32,000 nucleotides of DNA, taken from Candidatus Saccharimonadota bacterium (GTDB lineage Bacteria > Bacillota_I > Bacilli_A > Mycoplasmatales > Hepatoplasmataceae). The stretch is from contig AP027131.1 of assembly GCA_027925225.1 (NCBI GenBank), positions 600,001 through 632,000 of the forward strand, written 5' to 3'. Shown here piece after piece: positions 18,217 through 30,458 of this stretch (the stretch's first letter is position 1; each line of letters starts with the position of its first letter). The notes beneath the pieces were generated by a model, which saw nothing but the letters and a program-made list of their open reading frames with translations, had not been told where the DNA came from and did no database searches. The translations under genes were made by a program, and so were the position numbers.

Positions 18217-18867
18217 TTAAATATTTAGGTTTTTTTTATCAATTAATTCAAAAAAACTATTTAAATTAGTTTTGTATTTATTTACTTTTTTAAATTTAGA
18301 TTTATATTTTTCAATATCAGATATTACAAAAAGATGATAAAGATCAATTGCAAATATTTCTAATTTATTATTCCTTATTGTACATATAACTCTGAGTTCT
18401 TTAGAAGTTTTATTATGTTCATTATTTTCAATATGATGTAATTTTAAATGATAAATTTCCTCAGATATTAAAAATCCTAAATTTAGAGAAAATAAAATTC
18501 TTTTTATTCGCCCATCTTTTTTAATTTTAAAAGGATCCTTTTCTTTTCTATCGTTTGAAAGAGCTAGATTCATAAGATTATTAATATAATCTTTTTTATT
18601 TTGAAAATATTCACAAATATTTTTATAAATAAAATCTAAATATTCATTTTCATCTGGTTTGTGAATTTTGACCATATTTGTAAAAGTGTAATTTTTTAAT
18701 ATATAAGATTTTTTAGCTAAAAGATTAATAAAAATTTCATTAGGATATTCTTCATTTTTTTTGTCAAATTTACTTAAAGATATTTTTCTATTAAGAGATA
18801 AATTTTTCTTAAAATTAACAGAATGAATTGTATTTTGATTTATTTTTTCTAAATCAATTTTATCCAT
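18217..18867 (-). CDS. hypothetical 216-aa protein, downstream partner of the DUF4065-like gene
   Basis: Uninterrupted ATG...TAA ORF starting 9 nt after the upstream stop. The C-terminal segment ELRVICTIRNNKLEIFAIDLYH vaguely recalls the RelE/HigB strand pattern. No firm family. Confidence 0.6.
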   Translation of the reverse strand: MDKIDLEKINQNTIHSVNFKKNLSLNRKISLSKFDKKNEEYPNEIFINLLAKKSYILKNYTFTNMVKIHKPDENEYLDFIYKNICEYFQNKKDYINNLMNLALSNDRKEKDPFKIKKDGRIKRILFSLNLGFLISEEIYHLKLHHIENNEHNKTSKELRVICTIRNNKLEIFAIDLYHLFVISDIEKYKSKFKKVNKYKTNLNSFFELIDKKNLNI

Positions 18868-18876
18868 ATTTAAATA

Positions 18877-19431
18877 TTAATATTCTTCTCTTTTAAAATA
18901 TTCTTCAATTATATTTTCAGATAAAATTTCTTTAGAATTTTTATCTTCTAAATTTCATGCTTCAATTCAAGAATTATCTTTATGGCTTCAATTAACTAAT
19001 GAAAAATCACTAATATCAAAAATATTGTTTAATAAAAAATCATCAATAAAATTTTTTGATTCATTATTTTCATTCATCTTTTTTGAATACAAAGAAAACT
19101 CATCTTTTATATTTTCATTTAATTTATTTTTAGATACTTTCATATATTCTTTATATTCTTCAAATATTTCTTTTTCAACAGGCCCAAATTGTCTTGCTTG
19201 AAATTTTGGATTAGAAAAAAGATAAATATTATCTTTTTTAATAATTTCACCTTCTTCATTTTCATTTTTTATTTCTTGATTTAATTTTTTATTAAAACCA
19301 CCTCAATAAGCAAATAAAAAATAAATTGATTTTTGAAATTTAATTGAAGAAATTTTCTTATTATATTTCTTTTCATAAAGAAGTGTAATATATTTTGCTA
19401 AATCTTTTTTATTATAAATACCTTTTTGCAT
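18877..19431 (-). CDS. DUF4065 / Panacea-domain-like protein (SocA/GepA-type putative antitoxin)
   Basis: 184 aa with 4 TGA=Trp. The pattern IKFQKSIYFLFAYWGG...FQARQFGPVEKEIFEEYKEY matches the remembered DUF4065 core (KLQKLLYF...W..GPV...vY..yk). Confidence 0.6.
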
Positions 19432-22340: not shown

Positions 22341-22583
22341 TTAATTTTTTATAAAATACAATATTTTTTTTAAAAATTTACATATTGATTTATATAAATT
22401 TCAAATTGAAGCTATATAAAAACCTAAATCAAAAAAAATTCATGTTAAAAATAAAATTTTTAAAAGTTTTATTTCAAAATCAGTATGTTCTCAATGATCA
22501 ATTTGATTTTTTGTTAAAATTGTAAGATATATAAAAAATGTACCTAATCCTAAAAAAATAAAAAATAAAATAAAGTTTTTCAT
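22341..22583 (-). CDS. array paralog 1: 80-aa two-TM protein (divergent C-terminus)
   Basis: Sequence MKNFILFFIFLGLGTFFIYLTILTKNQIDHWEHTDFEIKLLKILFLTWIFFDLGFYIASIWNLYKSICKFLKKILYFIKN. RBS is AAAGGA. Confidence 0.65.
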
Positions 22584-22630
22584 ATTATTAAAATCCTTTC
22601 TATTTAATTTTAAAAATTCAAATAATAAAA

Positions 22631-22659
22631 AATACTTAAAATTGTTAATTTTAAGTATT
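22631..22659 (-). terminator. inter-unit hairpin terminator (downstream of paralog 2)
   Basis: 13-bp arms aatacttaaaatt / aattttaagtatt with a 3-nt loop, followed on the minus strand by TTTTTATTATTT. Confidence 0.6.
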
Positions 22660-22678
22660 TATAAAATTTAAAATATAT

Positions 22679-22927
22679 TTATTTATTTTCTTCTTTTTTA
22701 AAAATTAATTTTATAAATTTATATAAATTTCAAAATGAAGCCATAACAAATCCAAGATCTAAAATGCAAATTGATGTGAATAATACTTTTAAGATTTTAA
22801 AATCAAAATTTGGATCATTGTGCTCATTCGAAGAAAAAGAGTTAATTTCATTTTTTATATTTGCTGCAAAATATCCAAAAAGCATTCCTAATCCTAAAAA
22901 AATTAAAAATCATATAAATGTTTTCAT
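22679..22927 (-). CDS. array paralog 2: 82-aa two-TM protein
   Basis: Sequence MKTFIWFLIFLGLGMLFGYFAANIKNEINSFSSNEHNDPNFDFKILKVLFTSICILDLGFVMASFWNLYKFIKLIFKKEENK. The frame was verified. Confidence 0.7.
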
Positions 22928-22974
22928 ATTATTAAAATCCTTTCTATTTAATTTTAAAAATTAAAATAATAAAA

Positions 22975-23003
22975 AATACTTAAAATTAATAATTTTAAGT
23001 ATT
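22975..23003 (-). terminator. inter-unit hairpin terminator (downstream of paralog 3)
   Basis: Same 13-bp arms with loop aat and a T-run on the minus strand. Confidence 0.6.
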
Positions 23004-23022
23004 TATAAAATTTAAAATATAT

Positions 23023-23286
23023 TTATTTATTTTCTTCTTTTTTAAAAATTAATTTTATACATATATATAAATTTCAAAATGAAGCTGTTAAAAATCCAAA
23101 ATCAAAAAAAATTGATGCAGAAAATAATATTTTATAAAGTTTAAGATCAAAATAAGAATCATCATGATTATAGTGATTATAATCCTCTATTTTTTCCTTA
23201 AAATCAACTGTAAAATATATAAAAATCATTCCTAAACCTAAAAAAATAAGAAATCAAATTAAATTTTTTATATTAAATTTTTTCAT
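23023..23286 (-). CDS. array paralog 3: 87-aa two-TM protein
   Basis: Sequence MKKFNIKNLIWFLIFLGLGMIFIYFTVDFKEKIEDYNHYNHDDSYFDLKLYKILFSASIFFDFGFLTASFWNLYICIKLIFKKEENK. RBS is AAGGAGAA. Confidence 0.75.
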
Positions 23287-23333
23287 ATTTATTTATTCTC
23301 CTTATTTTAATTTTTAAAATTAAAATAATAAAA

Positions 23334-23362
23334 AATACTTAAAATTATTAATTTTAAATATT
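23334..23362 (-). terminator. inter-unit hairpin terminator (downstream of paralog 4), one mismatch
   Basis: Same arms, but the right arm reads aattttaaatatt (g to a), giving one mismatch. Confidence 0.5.
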
Positions 23363-23381
23363 TATAAAATTTAAAATATAT

Positions 23382-23645
23382 TTACTTATTTTCTTCTTTT
23401 TTAAAAATTAATTTTATACATATATATAAATTTCAAAATGAAGCTGTTAAAAATCCAAAATCAAAAAAAATTGATGCAGAAAATAATATTTTATAAAGTT
23501 TAAGATCAATATAAGAATCATTATGATTGTGATAATTATAATGATCAATTTCATATTTTGTATTTACTGTAAAATATATAAAAATCATTCCTAAACCTAA
23601 AAAAATAAAAAATCAAATAAAATTTTTTATACTAAACTTTTTCAT
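23382..23645 (-). CDS. array paralog 4: 87-aa two-TM protein
   Basis: Sequence MKKFSIKNFIWFFIFLGLGMIFIYFTVNTKYEIDHYNYHNHNDSYIDLKLYKILFSASIFFDFGFLTASFWNLYICIKLIFKKEENK. Confidence 0.75.
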
Positions 23646-23692
23646 ATTTATTATTACCTTTCGTTTTAATTTTAAAAATTAAAATAATAAAA

Positions 23693-23721
23693 AATACTTA
23701 AAATTGTTAATTTTAAGTATT
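23693..23721 (-). terminator. inter-unit hairpin terminator (downstream of paralog 5)
   Basis: Perfect 13-bp arms with loop gtt. Confidence 0.6.
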
Positions 23722-23740
23722 TATAAAATTTAAAATATAT

Positions 23741-23995
23741 TTACTTATTTTCTTCTTTTTTAAGAATTGATTTTATACAGATGTATAAATTTCAAAATGA
23801 AGCAATAAAAAAACCAAAATCTAAGAAAAGAAAAGAAGAAAATAAAACTCTTAACAATACATAGTCTTTATGTTCAAAATCAGGATAATTAGTATTAATT
23901 TCTTCCATTGTTTTTCCTAAAAAATATGCAAAAAGAATTCCCAATCCAAAAAAAATAAAAAATCAAATTAAGTTTTTTATATTAAAATTTTTCAT
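23741..23995 (-). CDS. array paralog 5: 84-aa two-TM protein
   Basis: Sequence MKNFNIKNLIWFFIFFGLGILFAYFLGKTMEEINTNYPDFEHKDYVLLRVLFSSFLFLDFGFFIASFWNLYICIKSILKKEENK. Confidence 0.75.
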
Positions 23996-24041
23996 ATTTA
24001 TTTATTCTCCTTATTTTAATTTTAAAATTAAGAAAATAAAA

Positions 24042-24070
24042 AATACTTAAAATTGTTAATCTTAAGTATT
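24042..24070 (-). terminator. inter-unit hairpin terminator (downstream of paralog 6), one mismatch
   Basis: The right arm reads aatcttaagtatt (t to c), giving one mismatch. Confidence 0.5.
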
Positions 24071-24089
24071 TATAAAAATTAAAATATAT

Positions 24090-24347
24090 TTATTTATTTT
24101 CTTCTTTTTTAAGAATTGATTTTATACAGATGTATAAATTTCAAAATGAAGCAATAAAAAAACCAAAATCAAAAAATATTATTGATGTAAATAATATTTT
24201 TAAAAAAACTATTTCTAAATTAGTTAATTCAAATCCAATAGGACGGTTAATTTTATACATAATATTACTTGCAATATAAATAAAAAGGAATGATAATCCT
24301 AAAAAAATTAAAAATCAAATAAAATTTTTTATATTAAATTTTTTCAT
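24090..24347 (-). CDS. array paralog 6: 85-aa two-TM protein
   Basis: Sequence MKKFNIKNFIWFLIFLGLSFLFIYIASNIMYKINRPIGFELTNLEIVFLKILFTSIIFFDFGFFIASFWNLYICIKSILKKEENK. Confidence 0.75.
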
Positions 24348-24404
24348 ATTTACTTATTCTCCTTATTTTAATTTTAAAAATTAAAATAATAAAAAATACT
24401 TAAA

Positions 24405-24433
24405 ATTGATAATTTTAAGTATTTATAAAAATT
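24405..24433 (-). terminator. inter-unit hairpin terminator (downstream of paralog 7)
   Basis: Perfect 13-bp arms with loop gat. Confidence 0.6.
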
Positions 24434-24442
24434 AAAATATAT

Positions 24443-24690
24443 TTATTTATTTTCTTCTCTTTTAAAAATTAATTTTACAAATTTATATAAATTTCAAAAT
24501 GAAGCTGTAAAAAAGCCAAGATCTAAAAGAATCCATGCTGAAAATAAAATTTTATAAAGCTTAATTTCAAAATCAGAATGAGTACCATGATTAATTTCGT
24601 TTTTTGTATTTACTGTAAAATATATAAAAATCATTCCTAAACCTAAAAAAATTAAAAATCAAATAAATTTTTTTATATTAAAGTTTTTCA
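24443..24690 (-). pseudogene. array paralog 7, frameshifted at an A5 tract (or phase-OFF copy)
   Basis: The span is 248 nt, not a multiple of 3. The N-terminus MKNFNIKKFIWFLIFLGLGMIFIYFTVNTK is in frame with the ATG. The family C-terminus EINHGTHSDFEIKLYKILFSAWILLDLGFFTASFWNLYKFVKLIFKREENK lies in another frame. Read as given, the ORF stops at TAG 24525-24523. Confidence 0.7.
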
Positions 24691-24782
24691 TATTTATCAC
24701 TACCTTTCTATTTAATTTTAGAAATTAAAATAAAATTTTTAAAAAAAATAAATAAGTTTTGATAATAAGATTTATATTTAGG

Positions 24783-24854
24783 TTAATTAAACAAAACTAA
24801 AAGAAAAAAGAAAAAATAATTAACATATAAAATAAATAATTTTTGTTTAATTAA
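24783..24854. promoter_or_regulatory. perfect 14-bp inverted repeat in the divergent control region between the array and the tail operon
   Basis: ttaattaaacaaaa (24783-24796) and ttttgtttaattaa (24841-24854) are exact reverse complements 44 nt apart. They lie inside the 197-bp intergenic region 24691-24887. Confidence 0.4.
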
Positions 24855-24887
24855 AAATGATTTTAAAACTAAAATAAAAGGAGAAAA

Positions 24888-26846
24888 ATGAAAATTTTTT
24901 TATTCAAAAATACAAAAATTAATAAAAATAGAACTATTCTTAATTTTATGGGAAACGAAAACTTAAATTCTTATTTAAAAAAAAATAATAAAAACTTTAA
25001 TTCAAATAATGATAAAAATTTCTTAGAAATTTCTGGCGAGGAAATAAAAAATGATTTTTTTAAAGAAAAATTTCAAATTTTAGATTTAGACAAAGATTTC
25101 TTAAACTATGATTTTGCAATTGTAAAGTCTTTTCCATATTCAAATGGAAAAGACTTTTATTTTTTTATAAAAAATATAAAAATAGTAAGTTCTAGTCAAA
25201 TTGAATTGTCTTTTGAATTTGACTTTATTTCAACTTGAAATATTTGAGAAATAATATTAATTAATGAAAAAATAGCTATTAAACAAGGACATTTAAAACA
25301 AGGAATTAATTTTGAATTAAATAAAAAAAAATTAGCAAAAAATGCTTTCTTTAGAAAAAAACAATTATTAAGTAAAAACCATAATTTAAAAACAATTTAT
25401 ATTCCAGAATCATTAATAAATAACAATGAAAAAAAAATGAAGGAAATTTTTAAATTTGATAAATGATTAATTTGTTTTATGGATTCTAATTTTGGAATGG
25501 GTGTAGATTTTAAAAATGTAATAAAAATAAGTGATCCAAATTCAAATGGAACTTTTGAATATAAATATAATATAATTGCTTTACCTTTCTCTGAAAATAA
25601 TGAAATTATGTTTAGAGGAAAATATACATCAAAAGAAAACATTATTACAGTTTCAAAAGATACAAAAATAAATGCATTTGAAATTTATAAAAATTTACAA
25701 GAAAATAAAACTTTTATTTATGGTTATTTAATAGATAGACTGCCCTTAAATAATATAAACTTTATTTCCGATGAAACAGGAAATTATATTACTGGAATTG
25801 ATATTTATGAAGTAAAAACTGATCCAAATAAGGATAATGGTGATGATAGTGATCAATATAATATTATTGTTCCAATAATTAAAGAAATTAGCTCAAATGT
25901 AAAAATAAATTATAAATCTTCACAAAAATTATTTAATTGAGAAGAAGCAGATAATAATTTTAAAAATGATAATGATTGAAAAAATATTATCTGAAAAAAA
26001 GAACAAGAAGCAATTTTAAATTTTGCTCCTTTTAAAAAATATGAAATAGGTATTTATACAGAAAATACAAACTCAGGATTTAAATTTGATTTAAACGATT
26101 TAATAAATTTAAATGTTCATGAAAATGATTATCTTAATATATTTGTAACTTTTGAACCGTATATTTTTGATACTGCTTTTGAATTAAAAGAAAGAGAAAA
26201 TACAGAAAATAATACTGATTATTATTATGGAGAAAGAATTTTTAAATTAAAACGTTCTATTGTAATTCCATATGAAAATTCAAAATGAATTGAAAATATG
26301 AAAAATAAAGAATTATCGGGATCTCAAAATTTTTTAACACCTGGGAAAAAAGCAGTTGGTTCTGTATTGTCTTCTCTAATTCCTGAAACTAAATTTTTAG
26401 ATTGAATGATACCTGGAGCAAAAATAGGAGCAAAATTATTTAAATCTATATTTGGGAAAGAAGACGAAAAAAGCGAAGAACCTGATTCAACCGCAAATAC
26501 AGGAACAGATTTAAATGTTGAAATATTAAGCAGTTATGATTTTAAAACTTTAAAAATAACAAAATATTTAGAAAGTGATGAAAATAAATTAGCATTTCAT
26601 ATTCATAAATATGGATATAACTTATTTGATGAACATTATTATCTGTCAGAAATACTTTTAGCAAGAACTAGATTTAATTTTATACAACTATCTGATTTTG
26701 AAACTGAAGAAATATTTAGTAATATACCTAATATTTATAAAAGTGAATATTTAGAAAGATTAAAATCTGGAATAACATTTTGAAATTTTATACAAGATGA
26801 ATTTGCTGATGTTTATGGAATAAATAAATTTATATTTAAATACTAA
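24888..26846 (+). CDS. phage tail knob / distal tail-tube protein, phi29 gp9-like
   Basis: RBS is AAAGGAGAAAA. The three track ORFs share one frame and are joined by 9 TGA=Trp, with the gaps checked, giving 652 aa. The N-domain YSNGKDFYFFIKNIKIVSSSQIELSFEFDFISTWNIW compares with remembered gp9 [35 protein letters not shown]. The C-terminus HKYGYNLF...RTRFNFIQ...SGITFWN compares with gp9 HKYGYKIN...RKAFNYVQ...NGITLWH. Confidence 0.7.
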
Positions 26847-26877: not shown

Positions 26878-27543
26878 ATGGCAATAAAAAATCCAGATGC
26901 AAAACAATTATCTTTAATTCAAATTTTAACTGATTATTTAATTACAATAGATGCAACTTTAGAAGGTGGAATAAATCAAGAAATAATAAATGAAAATAAT
27001 TTTACATCATTAAATCAAATAAAAACACTTGTTGAAACAGATACATATAATATATCAGCAAATGAAGCAAGTATTGGTACACTATCTAATCTTAATACTA
27101 CTGCAAATGCTGATTTAGTTCAATCTATAAACGAATTAAAAGATGCAATTAATATGATAAATGGTAAAGGAACTAGTTCTTATCCAGTTGGAACAATAGT
27201 AATAGCTCCAACTGCTCCTCAAATAGGAGGCTGAGAAAATTTAGGAGAAGTTTTAGAAGGACAAGCAATAATAGGCGGAACTTCAACCTATGGTTCAGTA
27301 ATGTCTCATACACACAATGTTGAATATAATGGTTCAGCAGATGATTATGAACATAAATATTGAGATATATGTGATAATATGAGTTCAGGAAATTATAGTA
27401 GAGGAAGCTCAAACAATAGTGGTAATTTATATGTTGATATAGCAAATAGATTACAAATTATTTCAACAGGAGGAAAAGAAAATATTCCATATGGAATAGG
27501 AATGGGATTAGGGCTTTATGTTTGAAAAAAAAATTCAAAATAA
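26878..27543 (+). CDS. tail-fibre / receptor-binding-like protein with tail-collar-type C-domain, paralog 1
   Basis: AGAGGTG lies 6 nt before ATG 26878. 221 aa with 3 TGA=Trp. Motifs seen: the fibre motif NADLVQSINELKDAI, the collar-like YPVGTIVIAPTAPQIGGWENLG and the H-x-H motif MSHTHNVEYNGSA. Confidence 0.65.
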
Positions 27544-27576
27544 TTTTATTTAAAATTAAAAAATAAAGGAGGAAAT

Positions 27577-28245
27577 ATGAATACAAAAAAAGGTAATTTA
27601 GATCAAGTAATTTTTGCTTCAATTTTAACAAATCAAGTTATACCAACAGATGCAGCTAGAGAAGGTGGAGAAAATCAAGAAATAATAAATGATAATAACT
27701 TTACATTGATAAACCAAGCAAATGAAAATATTAATAAAAACATATCAAATATTTCTATAAATACAAATAACATAGGTAATTTATCTAGTCTTAAAACTAA
27801 TATGAAATCAAATTTAGTAGATGCAATTAACGAGCTAAAAGATGAAATTGATTTAATAACAGGAGGAAATGGAACTACTCCTTATCCAATAGGAACAATA
27901 GTAATAGCTCCAACTGCTCCCGAAATAGGAAATTGAGAAGATTTAGGAGAAATCTTAGAAGGCCAAGCAATAATAGGTGGATCTTCATCTGATGGTTCAA
28001 TAATAGCACATACACATAATATTGAATATAATGGTTCAGCAGAGGGAATTAGTAACAAATTTTGAGATGAATCTGCAGATGATATGAGTGGAAATTATAG
28101 CAGAGGAGCTTCAGATAATGGTGATGGTAATTTTTATGCAGATATAGCAAGCAAATTAAAAATTACAACTACAGGAAATGATAAAAATAGAGCTTATGGA
28201 ATTGGACTAGGATTAGGGCTTCATCTTTGAAAAAGAATTAGTTAA
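27577..28245 (+). CDS. tail-fibre / receptor-binding-like protein, paralog 2
   Basis: RBS is AAAGGAGGAAAT. 222 aa, roughly 60% identical by eye to paralog 1. Motifs seen: SNLVDAINELKDEI, YPIGTIVIAPTAPEIGNWEDLG, AHTHNIEYNGSA. Confidence 0.65.
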
Positions 28246-28456: not shown

Positions 28457-29131
28457 ATGAAAAAAGAAAAAAAGATACTTTATTTTTTAATAGCTTTATC
28501 AATTATATTCACCTTAGTAATATTGGGATTGTTGGGAGGAACTCTTGCAAACAATAATTCTTATGCTTATGATGAATTTAATAAATGAATGATGTGTAGA
28601 AATGCAATGTTTGCATTTACAGCACTAGCTTCTTTATCAATAATAGCATTAATAATATTTATTATATTTAAAAATACAAATCAAGAAAATAAATTGAAAA
28701 TTGAAAAAAAAGAAATAAATAAGAATGATAATTTAAATGAAATAAATGATAAAAATATAACAAAAAATGTAAATAACTTTAAAAAAGAAATTAAAAATGG
28801 AAAGAAAACTTATAAAAAAGGATTATTGTGTCTTTTATTTTTTGGCTTATTTCTTATATTAATACCAATAATGATTAATACTAAAAATACTATTAATGAT
28901 TTAAAAGATGATTTAAGATATTTATCTGATGTTGAATTATTAGTTCTAAAAAATCAAAGAATTTTACTTGTTTCATTAATTTTTATTGATGCTTTTTTTG
29001 CATTAATGTCTTTTAAATATTTTTATAATTCTTTAATTAATTTAAATATTTTAGGAAAAAATCTAGAAATAGAAGAAAAGAAAAAGAGAGAAAGAAACTT
29101 AGAAGAAGAAGAAATAAATTTTATCAATTAG
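28457..29131 (+). CDS. 224-aa four-TM membrane protein with charged central loop and Glu/Lys-rich C-tail (hypothetical)
   Basis: ATG 28457 is in frame with track ORF 28589-29131 through one TGA. There are four hydrophobic helices, and the tail reads EIEEKKKRERNLEEEEINFIN. Confidence 0.6.
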
Positions 29132-29230: not shown

Positions 29231-29306
29231 TGGTGGTTCAGGACGGAATCGAACCGCCGACACAGGGTGCTTCAAACCCTTGCTCTACCGACTGAGCTAC
29301 TGAACC
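29231..29306 (-). tRNA. tRNA-Phe (GAA), CCA encoded
   Basis: Reverse complement is GGTTCAGTAGCTCAGTCGGTAGAGCAAGGGTTTGAAGCACCCT...GGTTCGATTCC...ACCA. Anticodon loop is TTGAAGC. Confidence 0.9.
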
Positions 29307-29311
29307 TTAAT

Positions 29312-29387
29312 TGGCGGTTCTGACGGGAATCGAACCCGCGATCTCCTCTGTGACAGAGAGGCGTGATAACCACTTCACTACAGAACC
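29312..29387 (-). tRNA. tRNA-Asp (GTC), CCA encoded
   Basis: Reverse complement begins GGTTCTGTAGTGAAGTGGTTATCAC. Anticodon arm is CCTCT-CTGTCAC-AGAGG. T-arm is GGTTCGATTCC. Confidence 0.9.
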
Positions 29388-29389
29388 AT

Positions 29390-29466
<77 letters not shown>

Positions 29467-29480
29467 ATATTATTTTAAAA

Positions 29481-29573
29481 TGGCGGAGATGGAGGGATTC
29501 GAACCCCCGCGCAGCTTTCACCACCTGGTAGTTTTCAAGACTACTCCCTTCAGCCAGACTTGGGTACATCTCC
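29481..29573 (-). tRNA. tRNA-Ser (TGA), class II, CCA encoded
   Basis: 93 nt with a long variable arm. Anticodon arm is GTAGT-CTTGAAA-ACTAC. Discriminator is G. Confidence 0.9.
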
Positions 29574-29596
29574 AAAGCCATTTTAAAATGTTTGAT

Positions 29597-29673
29597 TGGT
29601 GGTCCGTGCTGGACTCGAACCAGCGACCAACCGGTTATGAGCCGGTGGCTCTAACCAACTGAGCTAACGGACC
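29597..29673 (-). tRNA. tRNA with CAT anticodon, probable tRNA-Ile2 (lysidine type)
   Basis: Anticodon loop is CTCATAA. The body GGTCCGTTAGCTCAGTTGGTTAGAGC resembles Firmicute tRNA-Ile(CAU). Its position in the conserved order Met-Ile-Ser-fMet-Asp-Phe supports this call. Confidence 0.7.
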
Positions 29674-29697
29674 ATACAATACAAATTAATTAATTGT

Positions 29698-29774
29698 TGG
29701 TAGCGAGAGAGGGATTTGAACCCACGACCTATCGGATATGAACCGAGCGCTCTAACCAACTGAGCTACCTCGCC
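29698..29774 (-). tRNA. elongator tRNA-Met (CAT), CCA encoded
   Basis: Anticodon loop is TTCATAT and the acceptor stem GGCGAGG is fully paired. Confidence 0.8.
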
Positions 29775-29775
29775 A

Positions 29776-29851
29776 TGGTGGAGCGGATGAGATTCGAACT
29801 CACGACCTCCTATGTGCAAGACAGGTGCTCTACCAACTAAGCTACCGCCCC
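29776..29851 (-). tRNA. tRNA-Ala (TGC), CCA encoded
   Basis: Acceptor stem GGGGCGG carries the G3:U70 identity pair. Anticodon loop is CTTGCAC. Confidence 0.9.
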
Positions 29852-29852
29852 A

Positions 29853-29929
29853 TGGTCGGGAAGACAAGACTTGAACTTGCGACCCTTGCGTCCCAAACGC
29901 AATGCTCTGCCAAACTGAGCTACTTCCCG
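29853..29929 (-). tRNA. tRNA-Pro (TGG), CCA encoded
   Basis: Anticodon arm is TTGCG-TTTGGGA-CGCAA. Acceptor stem is CGGGAAG. Confidence 0.9.
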
Positions 29930-29963
29930 AAGAGAGATTTTTTTAAATTTATCCTATAAAATT

Positions 29964-30040
<77 letters not shown>

Positions 30041-30041
30041 A

Positions 30042-30126
30042 TGGTGCGGGTGGAGGGACTCGAACCCTCACGTCTCTCGACACTAGATCCTAAGTCTAGC
30101 GTGTCTGCCAATTCCACCACACCCGC
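30042..30126 (-). tRNA. tRNA-Leu (TAG), class II, CCA encoded
   Basis: 85 nt with a long variable arm. Anticodon arm is CTAGA-CTTAGGA-TCTAG. Confidence 0.9.
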
Positions 30127-30129
30127 ACA

Positions 30130-30206
30130 TGGTGCCGTTGATAGGAATCGAACCTACGACCTACTGATTACAAGTCAGTTGCTCTGGCCTGCTGAGCTAC
30201 AACGGC
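30130..30206 (-). tRNA. tRNA-Thr (TGT), CCA encoded
   Basis: Anticodon arm is ACTGA-CTTGTAA-TCAGT. Confidence 0.9.
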
Positions 30207-30220
30207 TTGGGTTGTAAGAT

Positions 30221-30296
30221 TGGTGGGGCATATAGGACTTGAACCTATGACCTCCTGCTTGTAAGGCAGATGCTCTCCCAACTGAGCTAATACCCC
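30221..30296 (-). tRNA. tRNA-Val (TAC), CCA encoded
   Basis: Anticodon arm is TCTGC-CTTACAA-GCAGG. Confidence 0.9.
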
Positions 30297-30301
30297 TTTA
30301 T

Positions 30302-30377
30302 TGGTGACCCATACGGGACTCGAACCCGTGAATGCTAGGATGAAAACCTAGTGTGTTAACCTCTTCACCAATGGGCC
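30302..30377 (-). tRNA. tRNA-Glu (TTC), CCA encoded
   Basis: Anticodon arm is CTAGG-TTTTCAT-CCTAG. Confidence 0.9.
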
Positions 30378-30383
30378 AAAAAA

Positions 30384-30458
30384 TGGCGCTCCGGAGAGGA
30401 TTCGAACCTCCGACCAACTGGTTAACAGCCAGCTGCTCTACCGCTGAGCTACCAGAGC
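30384..30458 (-). tRNA. tRNA-Asn (GTT), CCA encoded
   Basis: Anticodon arm is GCTGG-CTGTTAA-CCAGT. Discriminator is G. Confidence 0.9.

What the first reader, a model, noticed from the sequence alone, without database searches (positions are those of the whole stretch)
26878..28245. Tandem duplicated tail-fibre / tail-collar-like genes with conserved core and diverged tips
The two adjacent genes (221 and 222 aa) are clear paralogs.
- Both carry the fibre motif [NS][AN]-LV-x-[SA]-INELKD-x-I, a collar-type Y-P-[VI]-G-T-I-V-I-A-P-T-A-P-x-I-G-x-W segment, an H-T-H-N-[VI]-E-Y-N-G-S-A motif and a G-L-G-L-x-[VL]-W C-terminus. H-x-H metal-binding motifs occur in phage fibres.
- An exact 29-nt identity (27190-27218 = 27892-27920) sits in the core.
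- The N-terminal 20 aa, residues around 45-75 and the region after the HTH motif differ strongly. This is the pattern expected for alternative receptor specificities and for recombinational tip swapping.
- Two fibres with different tips beside seven variable-loop membrane proteins suggests a matching or arms-race relationship.
Basis: partly seen in the sequence, partly recalled or inferred. Interest (0 to 1): 0.7.

Follow-up and report, generated by a model that had tools for sequence, protein, structure and literature searches.

The report
Phage tail-fibre gene pair in Hepatoplasma
Two neighbouring genes in the isopod gut symbiont 'Candidatus Hepatoplasma vulgare' are duplicated copies of a tail-fibre gene from a tiny, undescribed phi29-like virus of wall-less bacteria; they sit behind that virus's tail-tip gene, and the host genome has kept the set intact.

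Summary
Genes A (26878-27543) and B (27577-28245) are full-length paralogs (55% aa identity), with the quoted motifs and the 29-nt identity.

They are phage fibre genes, but not Pfam tail-collar members. Their C-terminal ~120-aa head defines an uncatalogued family of about 43 proteins. The head always lies at the extreme C-terminus, mostly of long fibrous proteins on small code-4 phage contigs. Profile comparison links it remotely to the T4 gp10 C-terminal domain (P=81%), and both share a W-x-R-x-x-COOH ending.

The upstream 652-aa gene is a phi29 gp9-type tail-knob homologue (hhalign P=90-93%). The same knob-fibre pairing recurs on three phage contigs.

The module lies between parAB and a tRNA cluster, with no head, packaging or replication genes nearby. 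It is syntenic in a second Hepatoplasma lineage. Its GC3 matches the host, and the knob gene is under purifying selection (dN/dS 0.30).

Divergence between A and B is mosaic, not simply tip-focused. Gene conversion is not needed to explain the 29-nt run. The present function is unknown. The proposed arms race with the seven membrane genes remains untested.

The parts
26878..27543 (+). Gene A (HPAVJP_5650), 221 aa: short phage-type fibre protein. It has an N-terminal module (1-45), a helical stalk with the LVxSINELKD motif (46-100) and a C-terminal head domain (102-221).
   Evidence: Table-4 ORF; paralog of B; matches the family profile.
27577..28245 (+). Gene B (HPAVJP_5660), 222 aa: paralog of A with the same architecture.
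   Evidence: A 72%-identical ortholog fragment lies on L001.
27181..27543 (+). Head domain of A. It runs from YPVGTIVIAPTAPQIGGW through EGQAIIGG, HTH (27307-27315) and a variable insert to YGIGMGLGLYVWKKNSK.
   Evidence: Family alignment A4: nearly invariant P, G, W, G, G, GG, G, H-x-H, N, G-x-G-x-G, R. hhalign to the gp10 C-domain profile gives P=81%. The terminal motif occurs in 37 of 38 members.
27883..28245 (+). Head domain of B, with HTH at 28009-28017. This domain was used for the AF2 model.
   Evidence: (pLDDT 67; beta-rich after a helix).
27190..27218 (+). 29-nt stretch identical to 27892-27920; it encodes G-T-I-V-I-A-P-T-A-P.
24888..26846 (+). 652-aa gene (HPAVJP_5640): homologue of the phi29 gp9 tail knob (distal tube protein). 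It ends 31 nt before gene A starts.
   Evidence: 28% identity over the full length to the gene beside the fibre on L008 (E=2.5e-46), and to the L009 gene. hhalign to a gp9 family profile gives C-terminal P=90-93% and N-terminal P=56%; the reversed control gives 0.1%. dN/dS is 0.30 against the ortholog P0049.
28457..29131 (+). 224-aa membrane protein just downstream of B. Its N-terminal two-TM hairpin is shared with proteins of a related Hepatoplasma that carry the fibre head domain at their C-terminus.
   Evidence: BLAST of residues 1-55 against L001 ORFs (51-68% identity); alignment; TM scan.
22341..24700 (-). Seven tandem genes for 80-87-aa two-TM proteins, transcribed away from the module. 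They are linked to it by synteny only, and their role is unknown.
   Evidence: period 344-359 nt. A single ortholog occupies the same position on L004. dN/dS is about 0.9.

Best explanation
A and B are tandem duplicates of the tail-fibre (receptor-binding) gene of a small phi29-like podovirus that infects TGA=Trp Mollicutes. Together with the gp9-type tail-knob gene directly upstream, they form a three-gene tail module in the Hepatoplasma chromosome. It is not a complete prophage.

Shown: (1) the paralogy; (2) membership of a coherent head-domain family that sits at the C-terminus of fibrous proteins on phage contigs; (3) the knob homology and the recurrent knob-fibre adjacency; (4) chromosomal synteny in two lineages; (5) host-like codon usage; (6) purifying selection on the knob gene.

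Inferred mechanism: each protein forms a short homotrimeric fibre. The N-terminal ~45 residues (conserved block E-G-G-x-N-Q-E-I-I-N) would dock it on the tail. Residues ~46-100 would form a helical stalk. The C-terminal beta-rich head, distantly related to the T4 gp10/gp11 C-terminal domain, would bind a surface receptor. The near-invariant H-x-H would hold a metal ion on the threefold axis, and the variable insert after it would form the binding surface. In the ancestral virus the fibres would bind a wall-less cell, and the knob would then breach the membrane with its hydrophobic L loop.

In Hepatoplasma the module appears to be an old acquisition that selection still maintains. The two paralogs most likely give two binding specificities. 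What they bind, and for whose benefit, is not established.
For: Paralogy and motifs.

Family: an exhaustive HMM search found 46 hits, of which about 43 are true members, and the domain is always C-terminal.

Phage contexts:
- L003 carries a terminase and capsid-like and portal-like genes, with 57 in-frame TGAs.
- L002 carries a phage-type replication module: DUF669, Metallophos and a large polymerase-like ORF.
- L008 carries an upper collar connector (phrog_2038) and a packaging ATPase.
- L009 and L007 pair the fibre with a knob gene and an ATPase.

Knob homology. A Gly/Ala-rich hydrophobic segment lies at the position of the phi29 L loop. The pore-forming role of that loop is described in PMC6542822.

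Head-domain link to gp10/gp11:
- PDB profile top hit is gp11 (E=0.13).
- hhalign gives P=79% for gp11 and 46% for a single gp10 sequence, rising to 81% with a 7-member gp10 profile; the reversed control gives 0.2%.
- The COOH-terminal motif is shared.
- The BFVD top hit is 'Gp10 C-terminal domain', followed by baseplate, tail-collar and tail-fibre proteins.
- PHROG tail-fibre hits fall in the stalk.

Retention in the host: synteny ychF-parB-parA...small TM-knob-A-B-TM protein in an independent assembly of a related lineage. dN/dS is 0.30 for the knob against 0.25 for ychF and 0.29 for parB. GC3 is 0.06-0.08, the same as housekeeping genes, and every Trp codon is TGA.
Against: - No curated library recognises the head domain (Pfam; PADLOC and NCBIfam were not run). 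PHROGs gives only weak hits to the stalk.
- The AF2 monomer model is poor (pLDDT 67), and no fold match is significant.
- The gp10 link rests on 56 aligned columns plus an 8-residue terminal motif.
- Trimerisation, metal binding and receptor binding are all inferred.
- A and B are much shorter (221-222 aa) than most phage members (450-1155 aa) and lack any export signal or TM segment. A role outside the cell would therefore need lysis or an unknown export route.
- The fibre genes evolve faster than the knob (dN/dS 0.5-0.6, from only 88-128 codons), which also fits relaxed constraint.
- Only 32 kb of the genome was visible, so other phage genes could lie elsewhere.
Confidence: 0.72

Rival explanations
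1. The module is a functionless remnant of an old phage insertion that is slowly decaying. The two fibre genes are leftovers with no present role.
For: No capsid, portal, ATPase, polymerase or integrase gene lies within the 32 kb. The fibre genes show raised dN/dS (0.5-0.6; A against B 0.77). The downstream membrane protein lacks the head domain that its counterparts on L001 carry. A and B are truncated compared with phage fibres.
Against: All three ORFs are intact in two lineages that have diverged to dS of about 0.45. The knob gene's dN/dS (0.30) equals that of neighbouring housekeeping genes. In a 660-kb reduced genome with strong deletion bias, 3.4 kb of useless DNA would not be expected to persist. 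Both fibre genes keep strong ribosome-binding sites. The family has expanded to at least six copies in the related lineage.
Confidence: 0.15
2. The proteins are cellular surface adhesins of Hepatoplasma, used to attach to isopod midgut-gland epithelium. Phages would have captured the domain from the host, not the reverse.
For: The related lineage encodes the head domain fused to N-terminal TM hairpins (L001 269-aa and 225-aa proteins), so the domain can be tethered to the membrane. The family is extremely rare outside Mollicutes-like code-4 sequences.
Against: A and B have no signal peptide, lipobox or TM segment. In the TM-anchored forms the charge distribution places the head on the cytoplasmic side. 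Most family members lie in phage structural modules. The domain is remotely related to T4 baseplate heads. The adjacent gene is a tail knob. No homologue was returned from the other published Hepatoplasmataceae genomes.
Confidence: 0.08
3. The module serves phage defence. Fibre and knob proteins expressed by the host would block or mask the receptor, or poison the assembly, of related incoming phages (superinfection exclusion by a domesticated remnant).
For: Related small code-4 phages exist and share both proteins. Hepatoplasmataceae invest in defence through CRISPR-Cas9 and restriction-modification systems (PMC10928387). In the related lineage a large ATPase gene that looks like a defence gene is inserted beside the module (function not verified). 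The neighbouring small TM proteins resemble typical exclusion proteins in size and topology.
Against: There is no direct evidence. Cytoplasmic fibres cannot mask an external receptor. No PADLOC search was run. Known exclusion systems rarely keep a 652-aa structural protein under full-length constraint.
Confidence: 0.05

Closest known systems
T4 gp10 / gp11 (and gp12) C-terminal head domains: the 'Gp10 C-terminal domain' / phage tail collar superfamily
   Same: A leading strand motif Y-P-I-G-T-I, then P...G-[FY]-G-x-W...G...h-h-G. The position is at the extreme C-terminus of a trimeric fibre or pin. The chain ends with h-h-W-x-R-h-[AGS]-COOH. A Gram-positive prophage member (Streptococcus Javan174) also has S-H-S-H at the matching place. 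BFVD top hits are of this kind.
   Different: No Pfam model is matched. The loop between the strand and G-x-W is 7-9 residues shorter. The G-Q-x-I-I-G-G-x-S-x-x-G block and the N-K-A-Y-G-L-G-x-G block are specific to this family. The hosts are wall-less Mollicutes and the carrier phages are tiny podoviruses, not myoviruses. The fold is not confirmed.
phi29 gp12 pre-neck appendage (tailspike)
   Same: The same functional slot: the adsorption organelle of a phi29-type podovirus, encoded in the tail gene block beside connector and knob genes.
   Different: phi29 gp12 is an 854-aa protein (2565-nt CDS). From my own knowledge, it is a beta-helix tailspike with an autocleaved chaperone domain. No sequence similarity to A or B was found.
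phi29 gp9 tail knob (for the upstream 652-aa gene)
   Same: Similar length (652 aa against 599 aa). There are collinear N-terminal and C-terminal profile matches (P=56% and 90-93%). A hydrophobic or amphipathic segment lies at the L-loop position. The gene sits beside connector and fibre genes.
   Different: The middle ~300 residues are not alignable. There is no hit in Pfam, PHROGs or PDB sequence searches. In the Hepatoplasma copies the loop is less hydrophobic than in the phage copies.
Phage tail-like bacteriocins (tailocins) and other domesticated phage tail modules
   Same: Tail genes without head, packaging or replication genes, kept in a bacterial chromosome under selection.
   Different: Known tailocins derive from contractile or long flexible tails and comprise a dozen or more genes (own knowledge). 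Here there are only a podovirus knob and two short fibres, and no particle has been shown.

Membership tests
Pfam Phage tail collar domain (PF07484) | Match to the family HMM at or above the gathering score | tested here: not met
   A and B have no Pfam hit at E<=1. None of the 38 family head domains hits PF07484 at E<=1.
Pfam Phage tail collar domain (PF07484) | Alignable to the collar region of T4 gp12 | tested here: not met
   hhalign of the family profile against a T4-type gp12 aligns 13 columns (PVGAIMMW), P=1%.
T4 gp10 C-terminal domain superfamily (gp10/gp11 heads) | Profile-profile similarity to gp10 and gp11 C-terminal domains | tested here: inconclusive
   gp11 P=79% over 24 columns. 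gp10 single sequence P=46%. A 7-sequence gp10 profile gives P=81%, E=1.2e-5, 56 columns, against a reversed control of 0.2%. This is suggestive but below the usual 90-95% confidence level.
T4 gp10 C-terminal domain superfamily (gp10/gp11 heads) | Chain ends in the strand motif h-h-W-x-R-h-[AGS]-COOH | tested here: met
   37 of 38 family members end in h-[WFY]-x-R-x-x, and 7 of 7 gp10-type sequences end in W-x-R-x-x.
T4 gp10 C-terminal domain superfamily (gp10/gp11 heads) | Three-dimensional fold of the head domain | tested here: inconclusive
Phage tail fibre / receptor-binding protein (functional class) | Encoded in a phage structural gene block next to tail genes | tested here: met
   Relatives lie on L002, L003, L007, L008 and L009 beside capsid, connector, knob and ATPase genes. 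In the window the genes follow a gp9-type knob gene.
Phage tail fibre / receptor-binding protein (functional class) | Elongated modular protein with a C-terminal globular head | tested here: met
   The head is at the extreme C-terminus of all true members, which range from 102-aa fragments to 1155 aa. The stalk hits PHROG tail-fibre families and trimeric-adhesin coiled coils weakly.
Phage tail fibre / receptor-binding protein (functional class) | Homotrimer, part of the virion, binds a host receptor | not testable with these tools
   No multimer prediction or experiment was available.
phi29 gp9 tail knob family (upstream 652-aa gene) | Sequence or profile homology to gp9 | tested here: met
   hhalign of the 4-sequence profile against a 9-10-sequence gp9 profile gives C-terminal P=90.4-92.7% (E=1.4e-6 to 4.3e-7) and N-terminal P=56% at equivalent positions; the reversed control gives 0.1%. 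BLAST shows two collinear HSPs. HMM libraries do not detect it.
Complete prophage | Integrase, capsid, portal and packaging genes at the locus, bounded by att repeats | tested here: not met
   The flanks are parAB, small TM genes and a tRNA cluster. No such genes lie in the 32 kb. Only low-complexity direct repeats flank the module.

The most novel reading that the evidence does not exclude
The knob gene plus the two fibre genes could be a domesticated minimal podovirus tail: a 'mini-tailocin' or membrane-puncturing adhesion device. A knob hexamer carrying two kinds of receptor-binding fibres would be released by the neighbouring holin-like membrane proteins. It would bind other wall-less cells (competing mollicutes) or host membranes and insert its L loops to form pores. 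The seven-gene array of variable small TM proteins would then act as immunity or holin/antiholin factors. No tailocin derived from a short-tailed phage is known.
Probability: 0.1. Interest if true: 0.85.

Novelty: new variant of a known kind. Interest (0 to 1): 0.55.

Why it matters
Hepatoplasma genomes have been described as free of phage genes (PMC3942034), and the paper presenting this genome does not mention the locus (PMC10928387). The finding gives three things.

1. It is the first evidence of phage-derived structural genes kept under selection in this reduced symbiont.
2. It defines a fibre head-domain family that Pfam does not recognise and for which PHROGs gave only stray weak hits.
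3. It opens a window on a clade of very small phi29-like phages using code 4, one of them apparently a complete 9.4-kb genome. A 2024 review of phi29-like diversity has no occurrence of 'Mycoplasma' or 'Mollicutes' (PMC11476376).

If the module is functional, it would be a rare case of a podovirus tail being co-opted by a host. It would also offer a handle on how phages adsorb to and penetrate wall-less bacteria.

Tried and rejected
- Table-11 ORF calling truncates every gene at TGA. I replaced it with table 4.
- Pfam, PHROGs, PDB sequence searches and tblastn against 50,697 phage records gave nothing significant for A, B, the 652-aa protein or its L008 homologue.
- The search for related loci failed on genome and viral collections. 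One likely reason is that its back-translation uses TGG for Trp. My own TGR pattern recovered all known copies. In the collections it found only one mis-binned code-4 contig among genomes (L007) and nothing in IMG/VR or JGI metagenomes.
- The last word-indexed homologue search, with the knob alignment, returned only the two known proteins.
- Gene conversion as the cause of the 29-nt identity was rejected as unnecessary.
- The N-terminal module of A and B is not significantly similar to phage fibres beyond a weak 22-residue match to P0004 and a G-I-N-P-like motif.
- No convincing att-like repeats flank the module.
- The promoter scan is uninformative at this AT content: 39 sites found against 41.6 expected.

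Full report
**Source and genetic code.** The window is extremely AT-rich (13-28% GC outside the tRNA cluster). Under table 4 (TGA=Trp) the window resolves into long ORFs. The two genes match HPAVJP_5650 and HPAVJP_5660 of the 'Candidatus Hepatoplasma vulgare' metagenome-assembled genome exactly. Every Trp codon in the locus is TGA.

**Check of the observation.** Gene A is 26878-27543 (221 aa) and gene B is 27577-28245 (222 aa). Each follows a strong Shine-Dalgarno sequence.
- The two proteins are 55% identical over their full length, E=1e-75.
- The 29-nt exact identity is real. It lies in a 179-nt core that is 85.5% identical.
- A run that long is unlikely under uniform 71% identity (p=0.009) but unremarkable inside that core (p=0.18).
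- Synonymous divergence in the core is not near zero (pS 0.24), so recent gene conversion is not required.

Divergence between A and B is mosaic:

| Residues | Segment | pN | pS |
|---|---|---|---|
| 1-20 | N-terminus (diverged) | 0.47 | 0.21 |
| 21-45 | conserved block | 0.19 | 0.22 |
| 46-80 | stalk (diverged) | 0.38 | 0.48 |
| 97-152 | conserved core | 0.13 | 0.24 |
| 153-205 | insert after H-x-H (diverged) | 0.33 | 0.36 |
| 206-221 | conserved C-terminus | 0.18 | 0.22 |

The extreme C-terminus is conserved, so the pattern is not simply 'diverged tips'.

**What the proteins are.** Curated libraries are nearly silent. There is no Pfam hit. PHROGs gives only weak tail-fibre hits to the stalk (residues about 45-100). 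The nearest PDB sequences are trimeric adhesin coiled coils, at non-significant scores.

The word-indexed protein search found only one further relative. An exhaustive HMM search with the C-terminal domain found 46 hits, three of them spurious repeat proteins. In every true member the domain lies at the extreme C-terminus. The full-length members range from about 160 to 1155 aa.

The conserved pattern is P-[IV]-G-[ST]-I...P-x-[YI]-G-x-W-x-[DL]-G...G-Q-x-I-I-G-G-x-S-x-x-G...H-x-H, then a variable insert of about 30-100 residues, then N-K-A-Y-G-L-G-x-G...h-[WFY]-x-R-x-x-COOH.

**Genomic contexts of the relatives are viral.**
- L003 (16 kb, 57 in-frame TGAs) carries a terminase and capsid-like and portal-like genes. 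Its family member follows the capsid gene and has a head-tail-adaptor-like N-terminus.
- L002 carries a phage-type replication module (DUF669, Metallophos, a large polymerase-like ORF).
- L008 carries a phi29-type 'upper collar connector' and a packaging ATPase.
- L007 and L009 pair the fibre with a large tail gene and an ATPase.

All these contigs use code 4 and have 24-31% GC. They therefore appear to be small podoviruses of Mollicutes-like hosts.

**Relation of the head domain to known folds.** The 'tail collar' call fails as a membership claim. None of 38 members hits PF07484, and alignment to gp12 is negligible. Four weak but independent lines point instead to the related T4 gp10/gp11 C-terminal domain:
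- The top PDB profile hit is gp11 (E=0.13).
- Two members hit the PHROG 'baseplate wedge subunit' family.
- hhalign gives P=79% to gp11 and 46% to a single gp10 sequence. This rises to 81% (E=1.2e-5, 56 columns) against a seven-member gp10 profile, with a reversed control of 0.2%.
- The best BFVD Foldseek hits are a 'Gp10 C-terminal domain' protein, baseplate proteins, tail-collar proteins and tail fibres, none individually significant.

In addition, the chains end in the same way...YITVYRWIRIA in T4 gp10 and ...H-I-W-K-R-T-A in this family (37 of 38 members). A Streptococcus prophage fibre that belongs to the gp10 set also has S-H-S-H at the corresponding position.

I read this as probable remote homology, not proven. 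The AF2 monomer model (pLDDT 67) is too poor to decide, and PDB Foldseek gave noise.

**The neighbouring gene.** The 652-aa ORF (24888-26846) ends 31 nt before gene A starts.
- It is 28% identical over its full length (E=2.5e-46) to the 637-aa gene immediately upstream of the fibre on L008. It is also homologous to the gene next to the fibre on L009.
- A recollected resemblance to the phi29 tail knob gp9 was tested. BLAST gives two collinear weak HSPs at equivalent positions.
- A four-sequence profile against a nine-sequence gp9 profile gives P=90.4% (E=1.4e-6) over the C-terminal 107 columns and P=55.6% over N-terminal residues 16-117 against 25-118. The reversed control gives 0.1%.
- Adding the L007 protein, which itself matches the gp9 HMM at E=4.5e-7, raises the C-terminal match to 92.7%.
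- Just upstream of the aligned C-terminal block, the phage homologues carry a Gly/Ala-rich hydrophobic segment. phi29 gp9 has its pore-forming L loop at that position (PMC6542822). The Hepatoplasma copies have a more amphipathic segment there.
- AF2 of this protein failed (pLDDT 29.5).

**Chromosomal status.** The module lies between ychF-parB-parA plus seven small TM genes on one side and a membrane protein plus a 14-tRNA cluster on the other. The 32 kb contain no head, packaging, replication or integration genes.

Two contigs from one Logan sample (L004 and L001, 19% GC, code 4) come from a related Hepatoplasma lineage. They show the same order: ychF-parB-parA, an inserted 704-aa and 104-aa gene pair, one small TM gene, a 647-aa knob gene (74-77% identical), an A ortholog and a B ortholog. 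At least four more family members follow, two of them fused to N-terminal TM hairpins.

Nei-Gojobori estimates between the two lineages:

| Gene | dN/dS |
|---|---|
| parA | 0.07 |
| ychF | 0.25 |
| parB | 0.29 |
| knob (652 aa) | 0.30 |
| A, N-terminal half | 0.50 |
| B, C-terminal part | 0.60 |
| small TM gene | 0.90 |

dS is about 0.42-0.54 for the conserved genes in this set. GC3 of the knob, A and B (0.06-0.08) equals that of housekeeping genes. The module is therefore old, adapted to the host, and maintained by selection at least for the knob gene. The fibre genes are less constrained.

**Mechanism.** The shown and inferred steps are separated under 'best explanation'. In brief, A and B are short trimeric receptor-binding fibres of phage origin with a metal-binding H-x-H head. 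In the ancestral virus they worked together with a membrane-piercing knob. Their present role in Hepatoplasma is open. A and B have no export signal. In the TM-anchored relatives the charge distribution puts the head on the cytoplasmic side, which no explanation so far accounts for.

**Novelty.** Leclercq et al. reported no detectable phage genes in H. crinochetorum (PMC3942034). The H. vulgare genome paper does not discuss this locus (PMC10928387). A 2024 review of phi29-like phages has no occurrence of 'Mycoplasma' or 'Mollicutes' (PMC11476376). The family is absent from IMG/VR and JGI metagenomes. Among GTDB representative genomes it appears on only one mis-binned contig, when searched with a code-4-aware pattern.

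Noticed in passing
window 22341-24700 (- strand): Seven tandem genes (period 344-359 nt) encode 80-87-aa two-TM proteins with a conserved frame and a variable, His/Asn/Asp-rich loop. The related lineage has a single copy at the same position (L004 5560-5826). dN/dS is about 0.9. They resemble holins or immunity proteins in size and topology, but no function is known.
   Followed up: partly
L009 (Logan ERR7998032 contig, 9439 nt): The knob gene is split across the two contig ends and joins in frame if one A is added to a terminal A-run. The contig therefore looks like a complete, circularly permuted phi29-like genome of about 9.4 kb (24% GC, code 4), with ATPase, capsid-like, connector-like, fibre and knob genes. 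This is very small for a tailed phage.
   Followed up: partly
L001 316-1125 and 2318-2995 (related Hepatoplasma lineage): The fibre head domain is fused to N-terminal two- or four-TM hairpins homologous to the N-terminus of the window's 224-aa membrane protein (28457-29131). These copies lack the H-x-H insert. By the positive-inside rule the head would face the cytoplasm. This is unexplained.
   Followed up: partly
window ~24700-24900: All genes to the left are on the - strand and all to the right are on the + strand up to the tRNA cluster. GC skew changes sign and cumulative skew reaches its minimum here, next to parA/parB. This may be a replication origin or terminus region. No dnaA gene is in the window.
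   Followed up: no
window 18217-19431 (- strand): The 184-aa ORF (18877-19431) matches the SocA/Panacea antitoxin domain just above the Pfam cutoff (26.2 against 25.7 bits). The adjacent 216-aa ORF has no hit and could be its toxin partner.
   Followed up: partly
L004 3072-5454: In the related lineage a 704-aa protein (N-terminal H-x-H PHP-like motif plus a P-loop/ABC-type ATPase signature, by eye) and a 104-aa protein are inserted between parA and the small TM gene. They are absent from the window. This may be a defence gene, but Pfam gave no significant hit.
   Followed up: partly
window 25124-25157: A perfect 14-bp-stem hairpin followed by a T-run (terminator-like) lies inside the 652-aa coding sequence, in the region encoding the conserved F-P-Y-S-N-G-K-D-F segment.
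   Followed up: no
L007 (JBKEDB010000070.1, labelled Cumulibacter sp. MAG): This 6.5-kb contig has 31% GC and TGA=Trp, and encodes a fibre, a gp9-like knob and a packaging ATPase. It is almost certainly a mis-binned Mollicutes-type phage contig, not actinobacterial DNA.
   Followed up: partly
tool behaviour (against 65-67): Back-translated pattern scans that encode Trp as TGG miss homologues in code-4 genomes, where the conserved Trp is TGA. A hand-made TGR pattern recovered them.
   Followed up: yes
window 29231-30458 (- strand): A cluster of 14 tRNA genes lies immediately downstream of the module. tRNA clusters are common integration targets for mobile elements, but no att-like repeat was found.
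   Followed up: partly
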